A stretch of DNA of 64,000 nt from Candidatus Uhrbacteria bacterium (lineage in GTDB: Bacteria > Patescibacteriota > Patescibacteriia > UBA9934 > UBA10169): the NCBI GenBank assembly GCA_016187485.1, contig JACPJO010000003.1, positions 25,587 to 89,586 on the forward strand, in the 5' to 3' direction. Position numbers and translations under genes: made by a program. The number at the start of each line of letters is the position of its first letter. Positions within the stretch are counted from its first letter, which is position 1. Positions 1,314 to 12,319 of the stretch are shown piece by piece. The notes under the pieces were generated by a model. That model was not told the origin of the DNA and searched no databases. It saw only the letters and a program-made list of their open reading frames with translations.

Positions 1314-1389
1314 GCGGGCGTAGCTCAATTGGTAGAGCAGCGGATTCCAAATCCGCATGTTGCGGGTTCAAGTCCTGTCGCCCGTGCCA
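1314..1389 (+). tRNA. tRNA-Trp (anticodon CCA), CCA encoded
   Basis: Cloverleaf folded by hand: acceptor GCGGGCG/CGCCCGU, D arm GCUC-AAUUGGU-AGAGC, anticodon stem GCGGA/UCCGC with loop UUCCAAA, T loop UUCAAGU, discriminator G plus CCA. Confidence 0.85.
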
Positions 1390-1577
1390 ATCTTCTCTTC
1401 TTTACCACCGGTCCTCCTGACCGGTTTTCCTTTTTTAAAAAGTTGACGGCCAGAGTATTTCTCCCTACTGTCTACCCTGCGAACCTTTACAGAACGGAGT
1501 CCCTCGTGTTTTCCTCCCTAAGGTACGGCGCCTACTCATTGCTGAGCGTATCCCTCTTCGCCTCTGCCTACCGTGTC

Positions 1578-2474
1578 ATGAACACCCAGGTGCATGGGCT
1601 CTCCACGCCGGTCGCGTTCCTGGTCTTCAGCGTCTTTGCTCTGGCGAGTTCCGTGGTGATCACGCGGTTGTTCCACGGAGACGTCTTCCGGCACCTCTTT
1701 GATGCCTGCAGGACGTGGCAGTCGTGGGTGGCCGCCCTGGCCTATGCCGTGGGTTTCTTCCTCGGTTTGCAGGTCTATCAAGGGCCTGCAGAGGCCATCA
1801 TCGTCTTCCTTGTTGCTGATCTGTTGACGGGACCGTGCAACATCGTGGGAGAGTTCTTCGTTCTTCAGAAGAAGCCACAGAAGCCGGTGCACTCCGCACT
1901 CGCGTTCCTCGTGATCCTCGGTTGTCTGTGGGTAGAGAAGTTCGGCGTGGGGCCTGTGAATCGCGCGTTCATGGTCGTGGATGCAGTACTCGTGTTTGCC
2001 TTTGCGAACGTCATCATGGGGACAGCGTCGGAAATCTCTCGCGCACACGGACGGCAGAAGGTCGGCCTTTCTAAAGATGGAGTGCTGGTTCACGGAAACA
2101 TCGTGGCCATTCTCTTCGCGCTTGCATGGATCGTGGCAGACGTTTACAACGTCTCGCTCCTCCCTCGTCTGCACGACGTCATGCCGCCGCGCCTTCCCAC
2201 GTCAGGGGAGTGGGTAGCGCTGGCCTACCTCGGGATTTTTCCAACAGCGATAGGTCTCTCCATCCAGCACACGGTGCAGGATAAAGCGGGGTTCTTCGTC
2301 TCCGAGGCGGTAGAGGGAGTGCGGCCACTCCTTGTCTACCTCTTTGGTTTCCTCCCACTGTCGTGGCTCGTGGCCAAAGACCAACAGTGGTCCGGCGAGA
2401 AGGCGGCGGCTCTCGTCCTTGCCTGTGTTGCCGCTGGAGCTATCGTCATTTTCGAGCGCCCGCCAGAGAAGTAG
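1578..2474 (+). CDS. EamA/DMT-family membrane transporter (about 10 TM)
   Basis: Highly hydrophobic 299-aa product with repeated TM segments. The track ORF 1329-2474 begins inside the tRNA-Trp gene, so the start was moved to the first ATG after the tRNA. A GTG at 1507 is possible. Confidence 0.55.
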   Translation: MNTQVHGLSTPVAFLVFSVFALASSVVITRLFHGDVFRHLFDACRTWQSWVAALAYAVGFFLGLQVYQGPAEAIIVFLVADLLTGPCNIVGEFFVLQKKPQKPVHSALAFLVILGCLWVEKFGVGPVNRAFMVVDAVLVFAFANVIMGTASEISRAHGRQKVGLSKDGVLVHGNIVAILFALAWIVADVYNVSLLPRLHDVMPPRLPTSGEWVALAYLGIFPTAIGLSIQHTVQDKAGFFVSEAVEGVRPLLVYLFGFLPLSWLVAKDQQWSGEKAAALVLACVAAGAIVIFERPPEK

Positions 2475-2493
2475 TTCTCGTCGCGGCGCTTCT

Positions 2494-2520
2494 GAGACCG
2501 GTCCCGGTCTCTTTCTTTTT
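2494..2520 (+). terminator. rho-independent terminator after the transporter gene
   Basis: GAGACCG-GUCC-CGGUCUC hairpin followed by a UUUCUUUUU run. Confidence 0.4.
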
Positions 2521-2580
2521 GCTTTTTGAAATACGAAAGACCTCCGGCGGGAGGTCTAGGGAAAAAGATCGTTGCGTCGT

Positions 2581-4458
2581 TTAGGGCGTGATGCCAAAGA
2601 CGCGGCAGTAGAACGCGAGCTCTTCTTCGAGAGCGCGCGTGATGTTCTTCGCGTCCACGAAGCCGTGGCCTTCTTCGGCGAAGGTGATGTACGTGCAGGG
2701 GACACCTCTGTGTTCGAGTGCCGCAACCATCTTCTCGGCCTGACTCGGCGGCACGGCTGTGTCCTCGAGTCCCTGGCAGATGAGCATGGGGCAGCGGAGG
2801 TGGTCCACGGCGTAGATGGGCGAACGCGTCCGCCACTCATCCTCGGGCACGAGGCCAAACAGATAGCGCGCCTCGAACTTGTGCGTGTCGTCGTTCAGCG
2901 TCGTGAGGTCGCAGATGCCGAAGTGCACGACGCCGGCCTTGAAGAAATCGGTCGTCGTGAGAGCGGCGAGCACCGTGAACCCGCTCGCGCTCTGGCCGCG
3001 AATGGCGACACGATCCTTGTCCACGCGTCCTTCGACGATGAGGTGCCGGGCGCCAGCGATGCAGTCATCCACATCGTAGATGCCCCACATGCCATTCAGG
3101 CGTTCGCGGTATTGCCGTCCGTGGTTCGAACTGCCGCGGTAGTCCACATCGAGGACGGCGAAACCGCGGCTCGTCCAGAACTGGATGATGGCGTTGAAGG
3201 AGAGGCTGGCCGCGCTTGTGGGACCTCCGTGCGAGGTCACGATGAGCGGCGGCTGCGTGCCTTCCGGCGCCTGATGTTCCGGATTCTTCGGCGGGTAGAA
3301 GAAGCCGAAAGCTCGATTGTCACCGGTCGTCTTGAACTCGATGGCCTCCGGGGTCGAGAGGTACGCCTCCGGAACAGGAGCCGTCTCTCCGATGGAGTGG
3401 AGAGGACCGCCCGGAGGGCCCACGTAGATGGTCTGGGGACGCGTCGGACTTCCCCCGAGAATGGCTACACGCGTGTTGCTCGTCCGCACCTCGGAGACTT
3501 CGGAGAGTGGCAAAGCTTTGGTGCTGTAGCGGGCGCGGGGCGTGATGGAATCTACCGCCCAGCCTTCACTCCGACGGCAGGCGGCGAAGATCACGCCGTT
3601 GCAGAACCCGTAGTGCGACAGGCCGAAGGCCCACGGGGGCCTGGTGTGCTCACCGCAGATGGGGTCGGCGGGGTTCTTGATGGTTCCGCGGCTCCAGGCG
3701 TAGATGTTCCACCACCCCGTGATGTCTGAGATGAAGTGGAGCATGCCTCCCGGCGACCACGAGGGTTCCAGAATGGACTCCGGGTGCAGCCCCTCACCAT
3801 CCACGATGATTCCGCTCTGACGAATGGTTCCGTCCGTCTGGAGCTTTCCCCGGCAGAGCTGGGTGGCGCCCCACGGCATATGGGGGTGATGCCACTGGAT
3901 CCATGCGATCTCCTTGCCGGAGGGCGAGAGCCGTGGCGCGGCATAGAAATCAGCGCCCGAAACGAGAGGGGTCACCGTGCCGTCTGCGAGGTTGATGGTC
4001 ACGATTTCGGTGGTCGCGTCCACGTTCTTTGTGGCGCCCACATGATTCTCGCGCACAGCGATGAGCCGGCGGCGCGGTCGATCCAGGGTGAGGTCGGCGT
4101 AGAGGTGGTCAGGCGCCTCTTGGGTGATGGGCACCGGAGTGTCGTCCCGCAGAGGGTTGTAGCTGTACACGCGCCCATCCTTCTTGTGGAGGAAAAAGAG
4201 CTCTCCCTCATCCACGGCCATAGCGCCGCCGCCGTAGTGTGCGGACGCGAACGCGCTCCAGGGGGCGGGGAGGACGTCTTCGGGCGTTCCGTCGGGGCCT
4301 TCCCGCACGATGACGTACCGGCCCTCCTCAACCGGCCGCTTCTCGATCCAGTACAGGCGGTCGCCGTCGAAGTGCATTTCGACCTTCGAGGCTGACGCCT
4401 TTGCCGCGAGGGCGGGCGTGAGGGGGCTTGACCAGAGGCCAAAGGGGGTAATGTGCAT
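2581..4458 (-). CDS. S9-family serine peptidase (prolyl oligopeptidase/acylaminoacyl-peptidase-like; beta-propeller plus alpha/beta hydrolase)
   Basis: 625 aa. C-terminal hydrolase domain with nucleophile elbow GQSASG and downstream Asp/His. N-terminal repeat region typical of S9 propellers. Confidence 0.85.
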   Translation of the reverse strand: MHITPFGLWSSPLTPALAAKASASKVEMHFDGDRLYWIEKRPVEEGRYVIVREGPDGTPEDVLPAPWSAFASAHYGGGAMAVDEGELFFLHKKDGRVYSYNPLRDDTPVPITQEAPDHLYADLTLDRPRRRLIAVRENHVGATKNVDATTEIVTINLADGTVTPLVSGADFYAAPRLSPSGKEIAWIQWHHPHMPWGATQLCRGKLQTDGTIRQSGIIVDGEGLHPESILEPSWSPGGMLHFISDITGWWNIYAWSRGTIKNPADPICGEHTRPPWAFGLSHYGFCNGVIFAACRRSEGWAVDSITPRARYSTKALPLSEVSEVRTSNTRVAILGGSPTRPQTIYVGPPGGPLHSIGETAPVPEAYLSTPEAIEFKTTGDNRAFGFFYPPKNPEHQAPEGTQPPLIVTSHGGPTSAASLSFNAIIQFWTSRGFAVLDVDYRGSSNHGRQYRERLNGMWGIYDVDDCIAGARHLIVEGRVDKDRVAIRGQSASGFTVLAALTTTDFFKAGVVHFGICDLTTLNDDTHKFEARYLFGLVPEDEWRTRSPIYAVDHLRCPMLICQGLEDTAVPPSQAEKMVAALEHRGVPCTYITFAEEGHGFVDAKNITRALEEELAFYCRVFGITP

Positions 4459-4558
4459 GGGGGATTCCTTTCGTCCGGCCCAATGACATCAAAGTGACGA
4501 TGGTTTGTAAAGTCGAAACCCCGCGGATGGGCGGGGTGTGAAGAAGGAACTTGTTGTC

Positions 4559-5989
4559 CTAGCTCATGGCTCTCTTGAGGTCCCACACGAACCGTTCAAG
4601 GTGAGGGATCGTGTGAGGCATGAGGCAGAGCTTGTAGACAGTGGCTGGGCACGCGTTGGGGTCGCGGCCGCTGCCATCGAGTCGCTCGATGTGGTCGCTG
4701 CGCAGGTGGTAGGGGGCCAACGGGCCGTCTCCCTGGCGCAGGTACTCGGGGATGGCGCCATCCTCGATGTTCACCTCAAGCGGCAGGAACGGCGTGGCCT
4801 TGTGGTACGGCCAGAACCGGATGCGTTCGTCGCCGTCGAAGCGATCCATGAGGAGTCCGCGCAGAAGGTCGCGCGCCCCGATGCACTTCTTCACGAACGC
4901 GCGCTGGCCCGACACGCCGAGACTGCGCATGAGGTACCACGCGAGCACGGGCGAGACGGCCGAACGCGACCCGGGAAGAGTGTCGTCCGCGTGTCCGTTC
5001 ACGTACGCGACGTCTTGGGTCACGAGTCCCTGAAGGCCCTTCCGGCAGAGGAAGATGCCGGCAGGGTAGGGCACGCCGCCCATCTTGTCGGCGTCCACCG
5101 CGATGGAGCGCACGGCGGGAAGGTCGAAGCCGAAGCGGATCTCGGGCGCCATGAAAGGGACCGTGAAGCCGCCGAAGGAGGCATCCACGTGCAGGTAGCA
5201 GTTGTCCCGTTCCCGGAGCAGGTGTGCGATCTCCTCGACAGGGTCCACGGCGCCGGTGAGGCAAACCCCCACGGTGGCGACGACGAGGAAGCGTCGGTAC
5301 CCGCCGCCCTCGAGAGACCGGATGGTCTCCATGAGGTGCTCGGGGTCCATCGCCCCGTCAGCGCGCAAGCGCACATGGAAGATCTGGCCGTGGCGCGGCT
5401 TGCTCTCGAAGCAGTGCTTCCGCCCACAGCGCGGGCATTTCTCCCAGTGCGCGCGGGCGATGTCGAGGAGCTGGGCGCCCTTGTAGACGGAGTAGTGCGC
5501 CGTCGGAGCCACGAGGATGGCGGTGCCAACCTCGAAGGGATCCGCGATCTTGCTCTGCAGGTACTCCCGTCCAATCCACATCCCCTGCAGGTTGGCTTCG
5601 GTGCCGCCGCCGCAGAAGAAACCGTCCACCGTGGCGGGCACTCCGCCCATCACACTGGCCACCATCCAGACAGCCTCGGCCTCCATACGCTGGATCTGCT
5701 CGAAGCCGCCTTCGCCCTCGGCGAACGACCAGCTATCGCCCTGCGCTTCTCCGTGCGTGTGCGTGCCGATCGCGTTCAAGTGCCGGACGAGCAGGGGGCC
5801 TGCGAGGTCCGCGAGCTCCCGCCGCAACGGGGTGCCCGGATAGCAGAAGGGGGGCGGGGTCGTCTCGTAGGGGGAGCCGATGGTCTGGACGAGTTCACGG
5901 ACTGTCTCGAGATTTGCTGGCTTCTCGGGCCAGCGCCAGGCAGGTTCTCCTGTCATGGTCAATTCTCCACGGTAGCGAACTACCGCCAT
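4559..5989 (-). CDS. PLP-dependent group II decarboxylase (aromatic-amino-acid/glutamate/MfnA-like family) with a CPRCGRKHC zinc-knuckle-like insert
   Basis: 476 aa. Fold-type I decarboxylase-like layout with VDADKMGG (PLP lysine region) and Gly-rich loops. The family call rests on motif-level similarity only. Confidence 0.7.
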   Translation of the reverse strand: MAVVRYRGELTMTGEPAWRWPEKPANLETVRELVQTIGSPYETTPPPFCYPGTPLRRELADLAGPLLVRHLNAIGTHTHGEAQGDSWSFAEGEGGFEQIQRMEAEAVWMVASVMGGVPATVDGFFCGGGTEANLQGMWIGREYLQSKIADPFEVGTAILVAPTAHYSVYKGAQLLDIARAHWEKCPRCGRKHCFESKPRHGQIFHVRLRADGAMDPEHLMETIRSLEGGGYRRFLVVATVGVCLTGAVDPVEEIAHLLRERDNCYLHVDASFGGFTVPFMAPEIRFGFDLPAVRSIAVDADKMGGVPYPAGIFLCRKGLQGLVTQDVAYVNGHADDTLPGSRSAVSPVLAWYLMRSLGVSGQRAFVKKCIGARDLLRGLLMDRFDGDERIRFWPYHKATPFLPLEVNIEDGAIPEYLRQGDGPLAPYHLRSDHIERLDGSGRDPNACPATVYKLCLMPHTIPHLERFVWDLKRAMS

Positions 5990-6135
5990 TACTCTACACT
6001 TGCCGGCTCCCTTGTCAACGGCGACTGATCAACACTAAGTGTGGATCAGTTTGTAGGGGAGAAATGCGATTTTCTAAAAGCTAGCAATTCGAAACCAGGC
6101 CTTGGGGCCTGGTGAGAGAGAAAGGATCGACTGAA

Positions 6136-7065
6136 CTAGTGGTCCCACGCGCCTTCCGGCTTGGGGGATTTCACGTCCTTCATGATTGCCCAGAGTTCCG
6201 GGTAGAGGCGTGCCGTGCGCAGGATCGCGTCGAGGTACGGGACCCCGTCTGATCCAGCGGTGCCCGCGGTGTTCGGACCCAGAAAGTGGATGGCGAGTTT
6301 GAGGTGCACCTGACGGAAGTCGAGGTACGTTTTCTCGAAGCGCCAGATTGCCTGGGCAAGCCGACGCAAGGGGTGACCCTTGTGCGCGTCGCTCATGAGG
6401 TCTCCGAGTGCGATCTCTGCCCGGACGAGCGCTTCCTTGAAGCGACACACGACCGACGGGGTACGGGCGCGCTCCTCCATCTTGAGCGTCCACCAGCGGG
6501 ACGAACGCCCGTGCATTCCTGCGGGGACGTTCATTGTTCCCCGGAACGTGAAGGTGCGACCGTGAATGGTCATGTAGGGCGAGTCCGACCGCATGCCGGC
6601 CAGGAGTTCCACCTCACGCGCCTGTGCGGATTCCGCACCGCTTGCCGGGACGACCTCGTCTCGGAACCCGACCCCTTTTTTCATGAACAGATCTTTGTCC
6701 ATGCGGAAGAGGAGGCGGGTGGAGTCGATGGCTGACTTCATCCAGGAGATGGCCCAGCGCATGTGCGGCAGGGCGCCATCGGAGTCGTCCTTCTCGATCG
6801 CGTCGCGCGTCATCTCGAGTTCACGGATGACGCGCAGAAGCGCGAGTTCGCATGCCTGGTGCACCACGATGAAGTTTGCCTCCTCGTGGTTGATCGCTGC
6901 ACGCGTGTGGGCACTGCCCACGTTCGGCTCGCCCGCTGCGGGAAGGATCACACGCAGGCCGATGTAGGTGCAGTAGTGTGGCTTGGCCGGATCGGCGACT
7001 TCATGCCCGCAGGCCAGAACGACCGTGCCGGGAGTGGATGACTCTCGCCAGTGGGACTCGTCCAT
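6136..7065 (-). CDS. tryptophan 2,3-dioxygenase-like heme-dependent aromatic oxygenase
   Basis: NHEEANFIVVHQACELAL matches the H-E-x-x-F-I-x-QHQ-x-SEL distal-His motif of TDO. C-terminal WRF...FRQVH...LGPNTAGTAGSDGVPYL matches the WRFRH...IGxxxGTGGSSG proximal region. The start codon overlaps the trpS stop (ATGA). Confidence 0.65.
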   Translation of the reverse strand: MDESHWRESSTPGTVVLACGHEVADPAKPHYCTYIGLRVILPAAGEPNVGSAHTRAAINHEEANFIVVHQACELALLRVIRELEMTRDAIEKDDSDGALPHMRWAISWMKSAIDSTRLLFRMDKDLFMKKGVGFRDEVVPASGAESAQAREVELLAGMRSDSPYMTIHGRTFTFRGTMNVPAGMHGRSSRWWTLKMEERARTPSVVCRFKEALVRAEIALGDLMSDAHKGHPLRRLAQAIWRFEKTYLDFRQVHLKLAIHFLGPNTAGTAGSDGVPYLDAILRTARLYPELWAIMKDVKSPKPEGAWDH

Positions 7066-8108
7066 CAGACACCCCGTACGCCCATGAGGTGCTTTGCGCG
7101 CGCCACCGTGGGAGCGATGTGCTCGCGCGCCCGCCGCCCGCCGTCATGCAGGATGGCCTCGATATAGTCGTCGCCCTGGGCCTTGATGGCCCGGTAGCGC
7201 TCCTGCAGGGGGGCGAGGAGGTTGACGATCCGATCGCCGAGGTCCGTCTTGCACGCTCCGCACTCGATGTCTCCGCTCTTGCAGGCGTTGCGGAGTTGCA
7301 GCTCGCGCGTGACATCGCCCGGCAGGAGCGTGTGGAGCTGGAAGACGCGGCAGATCTCGGGCTCTCCCGGACTGGCGCCGACGCGCGGCTCCACCGGGTC
7401 GGGCAGAGACGGGGTCGGCGGCAGCTTCTTGTCGGCGCGCCGGCACCGCTTCATGATCACGTCGGGCGTCTCGTCCAGACTGATGGTGCTCTCGGGATGG
7501 CTCTTTCCCATCTTGCCCGTACCCTTGAGGCCCGGGACGCGCACGCCGGGGCCATCCATCAGGTCGGGGACGGGGAAGAGTTCCTCGCCCACCATCTTGT
7601 TGAACCGGCGCGCAAGCGTGCGCGCCAGCTCCACGTGCGGGTGCTGGTCCTCGCCCACGGGCACGAGGTGCGCCGAGGGGGCCAGGATGTCGGCCGCCAT
7701 CAGGACGGGGTAGGTGTAGATGCCGGCGTTGGGCGGATTGCCGCCCGCGGCCATCTCGTCGCGCTTCTCCTTGAAGTGGGGAAGCCGGTCGAGCTCGCCC
7801 ATGCCCACCAGGCACATGAGCAGCCACGTGAGCTCCGTGATCTCGGGGACCGAGCTCTGCGCGTAGATGACGTGCCGCGCGGGGTCGATCCCGGCGGCCA
7901 AGTACCAGCGGACGATCTCGCGCATGTCTGCCTCGATCGCCTCGGACTCCTCGCGCGTCGTGAGCGTGTGGAGGTTGGCGATGAAGAAGAAGCACCGATA
8001 GTCGGGCTTCTCTGCGAGTTCCGCGAAGAAGCGGATGGCGCCCAGGTAGTTGCCGATGTGCAAGCGCCCGGTGGCGCGGATCCCGGAGAGGACGATTTGT
8101 GCGGACAT
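7065..8108 (-). CDS. trpS: tryptophanyl-tRNA synthetase
   Basis: Class I aaRS signatures HIGN (HIGH) and KMGKS (KMSKS). 347 aa, with a CKSGDIECGACK insertion. Confidence 0.9.
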   Translation of the reverse strand: MSAQIVLSGIRATGRLHIGNYLGAIRFFAELAEKPDYRCFFFIANLHTLTTREESEAIEADMREIVRWYLAAGIDPARHVIYAQSSVPEITELTWLLMCLVGMGELDRLPHFKEKRDEMAAGGNPPNAGIYTYPVLMAADILAPSAHLVPVGEDQHPHVELARTLARRFNKMVGEELFPVPDLMDGPGVRVPGLKGTGKMGKSHPESTISLDETPDVIMKRCRRADKKLPPTPSLPDPVEPRVGASPGEPEICRVFQLHTLLPGDVTRELQLRNACKSGDIECGACKTDLGDRIVNLLAPLQERYRAIKAQGDDYIEAILHDGGRRAREHIAPTVARAKHLMGVRGV

Positions 8109-8284
8109 GAGGTTTCCAGAGTACGCCCGGGGAGGAAGTTCCGCGGGGTGCCTTTACCCTAGAGCCAAGCGAAATACCTGTCAACTAAGCGAACCTCGCT
8201 GTCGTTATTTGACGTGCGTTACTCGCCTATAGTATGTTGTCTGCAGTCCTTTTCCTTATTTCAAAGCCATTGAACCGAGAAGTA

Positions 8285-8545
8285 GTAGCGTACAAGCTCC
8301 CTGGGTAGCGAGCGGGGGAGAGTGCAAGCCCCGTCATAGCGGTACGTGAAATTGGGCTCGGTGAGGCGGGTGTTGCATTGGTGACATCCCGGAAGCTCCC
8401 GTAACCATGAGCGAACGCATATCTACGGAGTGCGTAAAAGCGCCAGGCGTATTGTTTGGCAGAGAGGTGGTACCGCGGGAAGAATCCCCGTCCTCTCAAG
8501 TCACCTATGGTGGCTTGCAAGGACGGGGCTTTTTGTACCCGCACT
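8285..8545 (+). promoter_or_regulatory. T-box riboswitch leader (probably Trp-specific) with intrinsic terminator
   Basis: Conserved T-box sequence AGAGGUGGUACCGCGGG at 8463-8480. It is immediately followed by a terminator (CCCCGUCCUC...GAGGACGGGG plus UUUUU, 8487-8535) that overlaps the antiterminator. An upstream stem I candidate carries GUGAAAUUGGGC, with possible specifier UGG. Sits between trpS and the TrpD-like gene. Confidence 0.55.
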
Positions 8546-8557
8546 GGAGGAACGACG

Positions 8558-9919
8558 ATGCACAGCAAGATCCCTCTCTCCCCTGCCTACACGAAGAAGT
8601 TGCGCATGCGCGAGGCGCTGTTCGAACCCGCCCAGCTCCTTCCTGTCCAGGAACGTCTGCTTCGCTCCATCGGCAAGTATCGCTACACGGACCTCATCCG
8701 CGCGACGCTTGGCCGGCACCTCAACATGGAGGAGGCATTCGTCGCGATGTGCTACGCCCTTCGGGCCTCCAACGGCTACCTCGAACGCCTGTACCTCTCC
8801 GGACTTGACGATTTCGGCGAAACCGGAAACGTCATGGCGGCGCGGGAGATGCTCTCGGGTCTGGCCATGAAGGAGGCGTGGGCGCATCTTACGCCCTCTG
8901 AGATTGCCGGGATGGTCGCGGCAACCATGATGGATGTCATGCGCTTCCCCGCATACGGGGACCGTGTCTTCGAGAACTGCGGCATGGGAGGGGATCGCGG
9001 TGTTCAGTTCAACGGAGAGCCGTTCCGTCGCAAGACGATCAATGGCTCTACGCTCTCCACTCTCGTGCTGGCTACTCTGCGCATCATCCAGACGGCGAAG
9101 CACGGTTCCTACGCCAACACGTCTGCCGTGGGCTCAACGGACGCTATCGAGCACCTCGGCGTCCGCGTGGACCTGCCGAACGTTGGGGTGCAGAATCGTC
9201 TCGCTGCGCTCGGTTTCCACTTCACCGATGCCCACGCGTGGAAGACGATTCACGATCTCTCTCACGCGGAGCCGCGTCGGGAGACGGTGAACCACATCGT
9301 GGGACCGCTTACGCCCCCGATCCACCCGGACATCGAACTCTTCAAGATCGTCGGCGTGAGCGAGAAGATGCATCCGCAGATCGTCGCCAAAGCCCTTGCG
9401 GTTCTGGGTGACGAGGGGGTCTTCCGCCTCAAGCACGCTGCCGCCGTGTGTGGACTCGAACGCGTTATCGACGTCGAGGAAGTCTCCGTGCACGAGCGCG
9501 TGCGTAGTGTCACGGTCCTCGACGAGCTCTCGCCTATCGCTTCGGCGGTGGCCATTGTGAGGAACGGGGAGTACTGCGGTACGCATATTCTCACGCCGAG
9601 CATGTTCGGCACCGCTCCTTTCAAGAACCCGCTCTCGGTGTTTGTAGAGAATACGGTGGAGCGCATCATGGAGGCAAACCGCACCGCGCTCTCGGGCGTG
9701 GACGATGGAAGGGACCTCGTTCCCTTCCTCGCCATGAATGCGGCGTTCAGCCTCTACCTGGTGGACTGCCTCACGGATGATCCTGTGTCCGAGACACGGC
9801 CGCCGTCCAGGGATGCTCTCTCCACTTGCTACCAGCGCTGCCTCGATGTGCTCCAAAGCGGGCGCGTCAAGCAGTTCGTCGACGGTTACGCCGAGCGGAG
9901 CCAGACGATTCAAGACTGA
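8558..9919 (+). CDS. glycosyltransferase family 3 protein (anthranilate phosphoribosyltransferase TrpD-like), divergent with long N-terminus
   Basis: ENCGMGGDRG...KHGSYANTSAVGSTDAIEHLG and NHIVGPLTPP resemble the TrpD/family-3 CGTGGDG, KHGN...S and GPLTNP motifs. Start placed at the ATG with GGAGG 7 nt upstream; the track ORF start at 8456 would run through the T-box leader. Confidence 0.6.
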   Translation: MHSKIPLSPAYTKKLRMREALFEPAQLLPVQERLLRSIGKYRYTDLIRATLGRHLNMEEAFVAMCYALRASNGYLERLYLSGLDDFGETGNVMAAREMLSGLAMKEAWAHLTPSEIAGMVAATMMDVMRFPAYGDRVFENCGMGGDRGVQFNGEPFRRKTINGSTLSTLVLATLRIIQTAKHGSYANTSAVGSTDAIEHLGVRVDLPNVGVQNRLAALGFHFTDAHAWKTIHDLSHAEPRRETVNHIVGPLTPPIHPDIELFKIVGVSEKMHPQIVAKALAVLGDEGVFRLKHAAAVCGLERVIDVEEVSVHERVRSVTVLDELSPIASAVAIVRNGEYCGTHILTPSMFGTAPFKNPLSVFVENTVERIMEANRTALSGVDDGRDLVPFLAMNAAFSLYLVDCLTDDPVSETRPPSRDALSTCYQRCLDVLQSGRVKQFVDGYAERSQTIQD

Positions 9920-9965: not shown

Positions 9966-10781
9966 ATGAATTCTTGTTTGTCACCACAAGTTATTGGGAT
10001 GGTGCACTTTTCCCCTCTGAATGGCGATCCGGCCTATCCAGGTGAAAAGATTCTTTTTGATCGAGCTCTCGCTGATATCCACGCCCTGCAAAATGGCGGA
10101 GTAGATGCCATCATGTTTGAGAATAATTTTGACAACCCAAAGTTTGAAATACTTCCCAAAGAACAGGCAGAGTCTTTTTCTTTACTTGTCGAGCGACTTC
10201 TTCCGAAAGTGAAGCTTCCATGGGGAGTGAGTGCTCTGTGGAATGATTATCGTCTGGCACTTTCTCTTTGCCAAAAGTTCGGCGGGGTGATGGTGCGCGT
10301 TCCGGTGTTTGCCGACCAAGTTGAGACGGTCTACGGGATCTTCGATGGACATCCAGAAGACGTTCTGTCATTCCGGTCGTCTATCGGCGCGGATCATGTA
10401 AAGATTTACGTAGACGTGCAAGTGAAGCATGCACGATTGACACAACCCCGCCCGCTTGCCGAATCCATCGCTGACACTGTTTCTTACCCGATTGACGGCA
10501 TCATTCTTACGGGGTCTTGGACAGGCGATCCACCGTCGGTGGAGGATTGCCAGCTTGCACGCTCTCTCGCTCCACGTCACATGGAAGTACTGACAGGAAG
10601 TGGCATGACGAGTGAAAATATCGGCGCTTTTCTTCCGTACATGCAGGGTTGTATTATTGGGACGGCGTTTAAAGAAGTAAAAGGACCCCAAAAGAGTGGG
10701 CCAAATGTTGTCGGGCCAGAGGTGCGTTACGATCCAGAACGAGTACAGGGGTTTATGCAAAAGATCCGGTGGCATACTTAG
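9966..10781 (+). CDS. BtpA/SgcQ-family TIM-barrel protein
   Basis: N-terminal VIGMVHFSPLNGDP matches the BtpA family signature. Lies in a low-GC (about 48%) islet. Confidence 0.55.
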   Translation: MNSCLSPQVIGMVHFSPLNGDPAYPGEKILFDRALADIHALQNGGVDAIMFENNFDNPKFEILPKEQAESFSLLVERLLPKVKLPWGVSALWNDYRLALSLCQKFGGVMVRVPVFADQVETVYGIFDGHPEDVLSFRSSIGADHVKIYVDVQVKHARLTQPRPLAESIADTVSYPIDGIILTGSWTGDPPSVEDCQLARSLAPRHMEVLTGSGMTSENIGAFLPYMQGCIIGTAFKEVKGPQKSGPNVVGPEVRYDPERVQGFMQKIRWHT

Positions 10782-10796
10782 CCAAAAGGATAGGAG

Positions 10797-11324
10797 ATGC
10801 ACTTGCAAAAGCTCATTCTCTTTGTCTGTAGGGGGAACATCCATCGCTCTGTGGTTGCCGAGCTTCTGGCGCGCAAGCTTCTTGTGGCGAACGGCCACCC
10901 GGATGTAGAGGTTGGGTCCCGTGGCCTGCAGTGGTACATGGGCGAACCGCCTCGCCATCCAAATCTGATGCATTACCCGTCGGCGTGGGAAGGATCGCGG
11001 GAAGCTCTTGCCGAGCGTGAAGTTGATGTGTCCCGGCACATTGCTCGTCGGCTTGAGCTTGAGGACATGGAGCGCGCAGATGCTGTCATTGTGATGGATC
11101 AGGAACTTCTCCGAGACAGTCCGACGAGTGTTCTCAACCTCTTCCCTTCGTATGGGGAGAAGACGCATCTCTTCTCCGAGCTGATTGACAAGATTCAAGA
11201 TGTAGAAGATCGTGGTGAGTACGCAAGCACGTCCGAGTATCGTGCAGCCGTGGAGGAAATCGAATCGACGCTCGTTTCCGGCCTGCCCCGCCTTCTCTTG
11301 TGGGTCGGTGAGGGTGTTCCTTAG
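10797..11324 (+). CDS. low-molecular-weight protein tyrosine phosphatase / ArsC-like
   Basis: P-loop VCRGNIHRS (C-X5-R) 10 residues from the N-terminus. Size 175 aa. Confidence 0.7.
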   Translation: MHLQKLILFVCRGNIHRSVVAELLARKLLVANGHPDVEVGSRGLQWYMGEPPRHPNLMHYPSAWEGSREALAEREVDVSRHIARRLELEDMERADAVIVMDQELLRDSPTSVLNLFPSYGEKTHLFSELIDKIQDVEDRGEYASTSEYRAAVEEIESTLVSGLPRLLLWVGEGVP

Positions 11325-11347: not shown

Positions 11348-12319
11348 ATGAATCTTCCCGCTTACTTCTGGCATGTGCACAGCAATAACCCAAGCGGCGG
11401 GCCCAAGGTCATGGTCTTGGGCGGCACGCATGGGGATGAGCACACGGGACTCTGGGTCGTCCATCATCTGCTCAAGAAGTTCGGCATCGAGGGCGCGCCC
11501 TGCGGTTCGTACCAGGCCAATGGGATGTTGGGCGATCTCTACATCGGGATCGGCAACCCAGAGGCGGTTCTGCGCGGCGTGCGCGGTGTCTCCATCGAGA
11601 AGGACCTGAACCGGTGCTTCGAACCGATGGTCATGGACAGTCCGGCCAACACGTTCCACGATGTCATGCGGGCGCGGGAACTCTTCCCGCTCCTCTGTCA
11701 GATGGACTACCTCTTCGACATCCATGCCGTGAGCAACCCCAAAGCCTCACCCTTCGTCTGCTTCGGCAAGATGACGCCCGAGCACCGGCGGCTGTGCGAC
11801 CTCATTCCGGTCCGGCACATCCTCACGGACCCCGACAACATCCTGCCCACGGACGATCCGGGAAGCCAGATGCTCTCGACGACCGACGCGGTCGTGGACC
11901 GCAACGGCGGGACGGCGATCACCTACGAGACCGGCTTCCAGAGCGATGCATCCAAGCTCCCGCGGGCGATCCGTGTGCTCGTGCGGCTCCTGTGCGGGGA
12001 AGGGGCAGGGGTGATCGACGACCGTCTTGCACGGCACATCCTCAAGGGCGTCAAGTACGTGCGCCCTACGATGCCCGATCAACGCGTGTTCGCGCTGACC
12101 CATTGCCTCGTTGCCAGGAGCACAGACCTCGGGTTCGAGCATGGGAAGAAGAGCATGCTCAAGAACTGGCACCCTGTGTGCAAGGGGGAGCGCTACGGAC
12201 GCTACACGGATGATGGAGAGGTCGTCCTCATTCCGGCGGACGGGTTCATCGTTTTTCCCACGAAGCCCGACCGGATGAAGCCCAACAAGGCGATGGTCTA
12301 CATCGCCCGTGCACTCTAG
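11348..12319 (+). CDS. succinylglutamate desuccinylase/aspartoacylase (AstE/AspA, M14-like) family deacylase
   Basis: GGTHGDEHTG zinc-binding motif near the N-terminus. 323 aa. Confidence 0.65.
   Translation: MNLPAYFWHVHSNNPSGGPKVMVLGGTHGDEHTGLWVVHHLLKKFGIEGAPCGSYQANGMLGDLYIGIGNPEAVLRGVRGVSIEKDLNRCFEPMVMDSPANTFHDVMRARELFPLLCQMDYLFDIHAVSNPKASPFVCFGKMTPEHRRLCDLIPVRHILTDPDNILPTDDPGSQMLSTTDAVVDRNGGTAITYETGFQSDASKLPRAIRVLVRLLCGEGAGVIDDRLARHILKGVKYVRPTMPDQRVFALTHCLVARSTDLGFEHGKKSMLKNWHPVCKGERYGRYTDDGEVVLIPADGFIVFPTKPDRMKPNKAMVYIARAL

What the first reader, a model, noticed from the sequence alone, without database searches (positions are those of the whole stretch)
1314..9919. High-GC tryptophan-centred gene block: TDO-like dioxygenase translationally coupled to TrpRS, with PLP decarboxylase, S9 peptidase, a T-box and tRNA-Trp
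trpS (HIGH/KMSKS) ends in ATGA overlapping the start of a heme-dioxygenase homolog with tryptophan 2,3-dioxygenase signature motifs. A group II PLP decarboxylase with an unusual CPRCGRKHC zinc-knuckle insert and an S9 peptidase follow in the same orientation with short gaps. A T-box leader controls a divergent TrpD-like family-3 glycosyltransferase, and tRNA-Trp sits 5 kb away.

A tRNA synthetase co-transcribed with Trp-modifying enzymes is not a standard Trp biosynthesis or kynurenine operon. Examples are Trp to tryptamine via the decarboxylase, or Trp/indole oxidation via the TDO-like enzyme. The arrangement suggests a Trp-derived metabolite pathway, or an auxiliary resistance-type TrpRS protecting against a Trp-analogue product. 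The whole block is about 62% GC, against about 50% GC for the neighbouring T4SS locus, which is consistent with horizontal acquisition.
Basis: partly seen in the sequence, partly recalled or inferred. Interest (0 to 1): 0.7.

Follow-up and report, generated by a model that had tools for sequence, protein, structure and literature searches.

The report
Tryptophan gene island in a CPR bacterium
In an ultra-small "Candidatus Uhrbacteria" bacterium, the ordinary tryptophan-charging enzyme is fused in expression to an unstudied branch of tryptophan dioxygenase-like heme proteins and sits beside a tryptophan-sensing RNA switch that controls two enzymes of unknown chemistry, and parts of this layout recur across many related uncultured bacteria.

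Summary
All named genes, the tRNA-Trp and a real Trp-specific T-box are at the stated coordinates. Minor corrections: the trpS/TDO-like junction is TGATG, not ATGA, and the T-box scores below Rfam's cut-off.

The organism is a CPR bacterium (identical protein named Candidatus Uhrbacteria).

Comparative data reshape the interpretation:
- The TrpRS is the canonical type, not TrpRS-II-like, and TrpRS lies in this same neighbourhood in many CPR loci. A resistance copy is unlikely.
- The TDO-like protein belongs to a rare clade (about 45 clusters in 1.8 billion). It keeps the heme and Trp-binding residues and adds an N-terminal CxH…HxC motif. trpS lies immediately upstream in 8 of 10 lineages.
- The T-box → TrpD-like → BtpA unit is CPR-wide. 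A Trp T-box or a TrpR-family gene precedes it, and trpS and tRNA-Trp are usually nearby.
- One locus embeds trpC-trpB-trpA beside BtpA.
- The GC argument for a block transfer is weak, because GC3 is mosaic.

Best reading: a tryptophan homeostasis island. It combines housekeeping charging, a coupled Trp-oxidising heme enzyme, and a starvation-induced PRPP-dependent salvage branch. The chemistry is untested. I found no literature describing it.

The parts
1314..1389 (+). tRNA-Trp (anticodon CCA, discriminator G, encoded CCA); terminator-like hairpin follows at 1407-1425
   Evidence: ARAGORN, Rfam 67.9 bits, sequence, terminator-like hairpin. tRNA-Trp is also next to the module in L007, L009 and 11 distinct TrpD-like loci.
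2581..4458 (-). S9 (prolyl-oligopeptidase family) serine peptidase, 625 aa. A terminator-like hairpin at 2557-2538 ends the minus-strand unit.
   Evidence: Pfam PF00326 172.6 bits. GQSASG, Asp and His present. Terminator-like hairpin. An S9 homologue (41%) is also beside AstE/LMWPc/TrpD-like/BtpA in L022.
4559..5989 (-). Group II PLP-dependent decarboxylase-like enzyme (MfnA/His/Ser-decarboxylase-like) with a conserved CxxCxxxH insert. The probable start is the ATG at 5956 (465 aa). A promoter-like site lies at 6018-5991.
   Evidence: PF00282 70 bits. TIGR03812 130 bits, below cut-off. Closest PDB sequences are MfnA and Ser/His decarboxylases. PLP Lys lies in D(A/G)DKMG and the insert is conserved in L009, L015, L016, L018 and L020. 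Start and promoter.
6136..7065 (-). TDO-superfamily heme protein (309 aa) of a distinct clade. N-terminal C19-x-H21…H30-x-C32 motif, Y31/Y34, distal H69, R135, PASGAES, proximal H254.
7065..8108 (-). Canonical-type tryptophanyl-tRNA synthetase (347 aa; HIGN, KMGKS; C-x22-C-x6-C-x2-C motif). Its stop TGA shares one base with the TDO-like ATG.
   Evidence: TIGR00233 264.9 bits, sequence, PDB comparison, Cys motif.
8261..8535 (+). Trp-specific T-box leader with intrinsic terminator. Specifier UGG plus G, bulge UGGU, terminator CCCCGUCCU…AGGACGGGGCUUUUU. Promoter-like site at 8209-8238.
   Evidence: Rfam 83.7 bits, E=2e-18, sequence, promoter scan. Homologous T-boxes before TrpD-like genes in other loci.
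8558..9919 (+). TrpD-like type III phosphoribosyltransferase (453 aa) of a CPR-wide family. Keeps CGMGGD, N-x-S-T, KHG, GST-D, GPLTPP and LDELS motifs.
   Evidence: PF00591. TIGR01245 97 bits, below the 199 cut-off. PDB hits are all AnPRT. Family and invariant columns.
9966..10781 (+). BtpA/SgcQ-family phosphate-binding TIM barrel (271 aa), the constant partner of the TrpD-like gene
10797..11324 (+). Low-molecular-weight phosphatase-like protein (CRGNIHRS = Cx5R(S) motif)
   Evidence: PF01451 in the called genes. Weak NCBIfam hits. Motif. An LMWPc or HAD phosphatase recurs in this operon, with HAD fusions to the TrpD-like protein.
11348..12319 (+). AstE/AspA-family zinc deacylase (GGTHGDEH motif)
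   Evidence: PF24827, NF002601 44.8 bits, motif. Recurs in L009, L018, L022, L023, L025 and L075. An M20 amidohydrolase takes the same place in L076.

Best explanation
This is the tryptophan-handling island of a CPR (Candidatus Uhrbacteria) chromosome. It is not a secondary-metabolite cluster with a resistance synthetase.

**Shown**
- A canonical-type trpS is translationally coupled to a member of a rare, distinct clade of the tryptophan 2,3-dioxygenase superfamily.
- That clade keeps the proximal and distal histidines, the carboxylate-binding arginine and the YxxY arm of real TDOs. It adds an N-terminal CxH…HxC motif.
- A PLP decarboxylase-like gene and an S9 peptidase follow trpS and the TDO-like gene on the same strand.
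- Divergently, a terminator-type T-box with a UGG specifier precedes TrpD-like PRT, BtpA, LMW phosphatase and AstE/AspA deacylase.
- The tRNA-Trp gene lies nearby.

**Inferred mechanism**
- When uncharged tRNA-Trp accumulates, it pairs with the UGG specifier and the UGGU bulge. This stabilises the antiterminator, and the TrpD-like operon is read through.
- That operon supplies or spares Trp. A deacylase (and perhaps the S9 peptidase) frees an aromatic amine or amino acid.
- The PRT couples an anthranilate-like amine to PRPP, and BtpA then acts on the phosphoribosyl product. BtpA possibly replaces TrpF.
- A phosphatase acts somewhere in this sequence.
- The TDO-like protein, made in fixed proportion to TrpRS, binds heme and free L-Trp. 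When O2 is present it oxidises Trp that is not needed for charging, most simply to N-formylkynurenine.
- The decarboxylase is a second outlet for Trp.

The exact substrates and products are unknown.
For: **Organism**
- An identical protein is named Candidatus Uhrbacteria.
- The rest of the window is housekeeping: RecG, ClpB-like, GlmM, a Mur ligase and PheT, plus a VirB4-like gene.

**trpS**
- It is the canonical type.

**trpS upstream of the TDO-like gene**
- trpS sits immediately upstream, overlapping or within 18-300 nt, in the window, L007, L009, L010/L012, L021, L073, L074 and L075. That is 8 of 10 lineages, spanning 30-56% TDO-like identity and 42-65% GC.

**TDO-like protein**
- It has the TDO fold.
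- Conservation among 49 members: H69 in 48, R135 in 48, H254 in 47, Y31 and Y34 in 49, and C19/H21/H30/C32 in 47-48.

**T-box**
- establish the T-box in the window.
- UGG-specifier T-boxes precede TrpD-like genes in L009, L014-L016, L026, L028, L033, L037, L038, L043, L053 and L067.
- The core motif plus a T-run lies upstream in 19 of 42 loci, against 1 background hit in 634 kb.
- TrpR-family genes replace the T-box in L027, L032, L047, L048, L054, L063, L065 and L071.

**Module conservation**
- BtpA is present in the locus in 26 of 30 loci.
- TrpRS is present in 13 of 18 long loci and tRNA-Trp in 8 of 18.

**Link to Trp biosynthesis**
- L053 has T-box-LMWPc-TrpD-like, then trpC-trpB-trpA-BtpA-HAD, with no trpF.
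- The PRPP and Mg motifs are kept.

**A deacylase step recurs**
- AstE/AspA follows in CPR loci, and an M20 amidohydrolase takes the same position in a DPANN archaeon.

**Oxygen**
- CPR MAGs do carry O2-using Trp-metabolism genes (PMC12577380).
Against: - No enzyme activity is tested for any gene.
- trpC, trpB and trpA are absent from the window and from all other loci. TrpD-like plus BtpA alone cannot make Trp by the known route.
- BtpA's structural neighbours are generic phosphate-binding barrels. TrpA and TrpF are no closer than HPS, MfnB or ThiE.
- TrpD-like and the TDO-like protein both fail the curated equivalog cut-offs.
- SGFQS is replaced by PASGAES.
- From my own knowledge, CPR bacteria are generally thought to lack heme synthesis, so heme loading is uncertain.
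- Making a Trp-destroying enzyme together with the only TrpRS, in an organism that probably imports Trp, is counter-intuitive.
- Two lineages have the TDO-like gene without trpS upstream: L013 and L072.
- Uniqueness of the trpS in the genome could not be checked.
Confidence: 0.5

Rival explanations
1. The TDO-like protein is mainly a regulatory or physical partner of TrpRS. It would act as a heme/O2/Trp sensor, or as a complex that alters what TrpRS does, rather than as a bulk catabolic enzyme. The model is the Deinococcus NOS-TrpRS II complex, or the heme activation of human TrpRS.
For: - Overlapping stop and start codons are kept across very divergent lineages. This suggests stoichiometric co-production.
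- The clade-specific CxH…HxC motif sits right at the N-terminal arm that in TDOs completes the neighbouring active site. It could be an interaction or metal-sensing element.
- All TDO-linked TrpRS carry the four-Cys motif.
- The precedents cited in the statement are from my own knowledge.
Against: - The full catalytic and substrate-binding set of TDO is conserved, which a pure sensor would not need.
- The four-Cys TrpRS motif is also common in CPR TrpRS without a TDO-like neighbour.
- L013 and L072 keep the TDO-like gene without trpS upstream.
- No complex prediction could be run.
Confidence: 0.2
2. The whole island is a Trp to kynurenine to anthranilate recapture loop, like the chlamydial Trp/kynurenine/Trp cycle. 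The proposed steps are:
- The TDO-like enzyme makes N-formylkynurenine.
- AstE/AspA or the S9 hydrolase removes the formyl group.
- The PLP enzyme cleaves kynurenine.
- TrpD-like and BtpA carry anthranilate back towards Trp.
For: - Every gene can be given a step.
- A deacylase recurs next to both modules.
- The TrpD-like protein keeps the PRPP motifs and a basic residue where TrpD binds the anthranilate carboxylate.
- L053 links BtpA to trpCBA.
- Chlamydial precedent: PMC3937554.
Against: - The PLP enzyme is a group II decarboxylase homologue, not a kynureninase.
- trpCBA are missing in the window and in nearly all loci.
- The TDO-like gene is present in only 1 of 48 distinct TrpD-like loci from the scan, so the TrpD-like/BtpA unit works without it.
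- Degrading one's own Trp in order to remake it gains nothing.
Confidence: 0.12
3. One reading: a pathway to a Trp-derived specialised metabolite (tryptamine or an oxidised indole), with trpS acting as a self-resistance or auxiliary copy. The block would have been acquired horizontally.
For: - Two Trp-modifying enzyme types lie beside trpS.
- GC3 is raised to 0.79-0.91 in six of the genes, against 0.60±0.08 for the rest of the window.
- Relatives with 64-65% GC carry the same module: L021 and L075.
Against: - The TrpRS is the canonical type and far from TrpRS II.
- The same trpS neighbourhood is the norm across CPR loci.
- L010 places the pair in a housekeeping context.
- There are no scaffold-forming, tailoring or export genes.
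- Accessory genes vary between loci.
- GC3 is mosaic, and the mosaic is shared with L009.
- A Trp T-box signals Trp shortage, not product synthesis.
Confidence: 0.07
4. The adjacency has no shared function. The genes are simply neighbours in a compact genome, and the TDO-like gene is a decaying or moonlighting relic.
For: - CPR genomes are dense (from my own knowledge).
- The TDO-like gene is rare: 1 of 48 TrpD-like loci, and 45 clusters in 1.84 billion.
Against: - trpS is upstream in 8 of 10 lineages, with conserved codon overlap.
- Functional residues are under strong conservation in 49 members.
- tRNA-Trp, TrpRS, Trp T-box/TrpR and a TrpD homologue co-localise far beyond chance.
Confidence: 0.05

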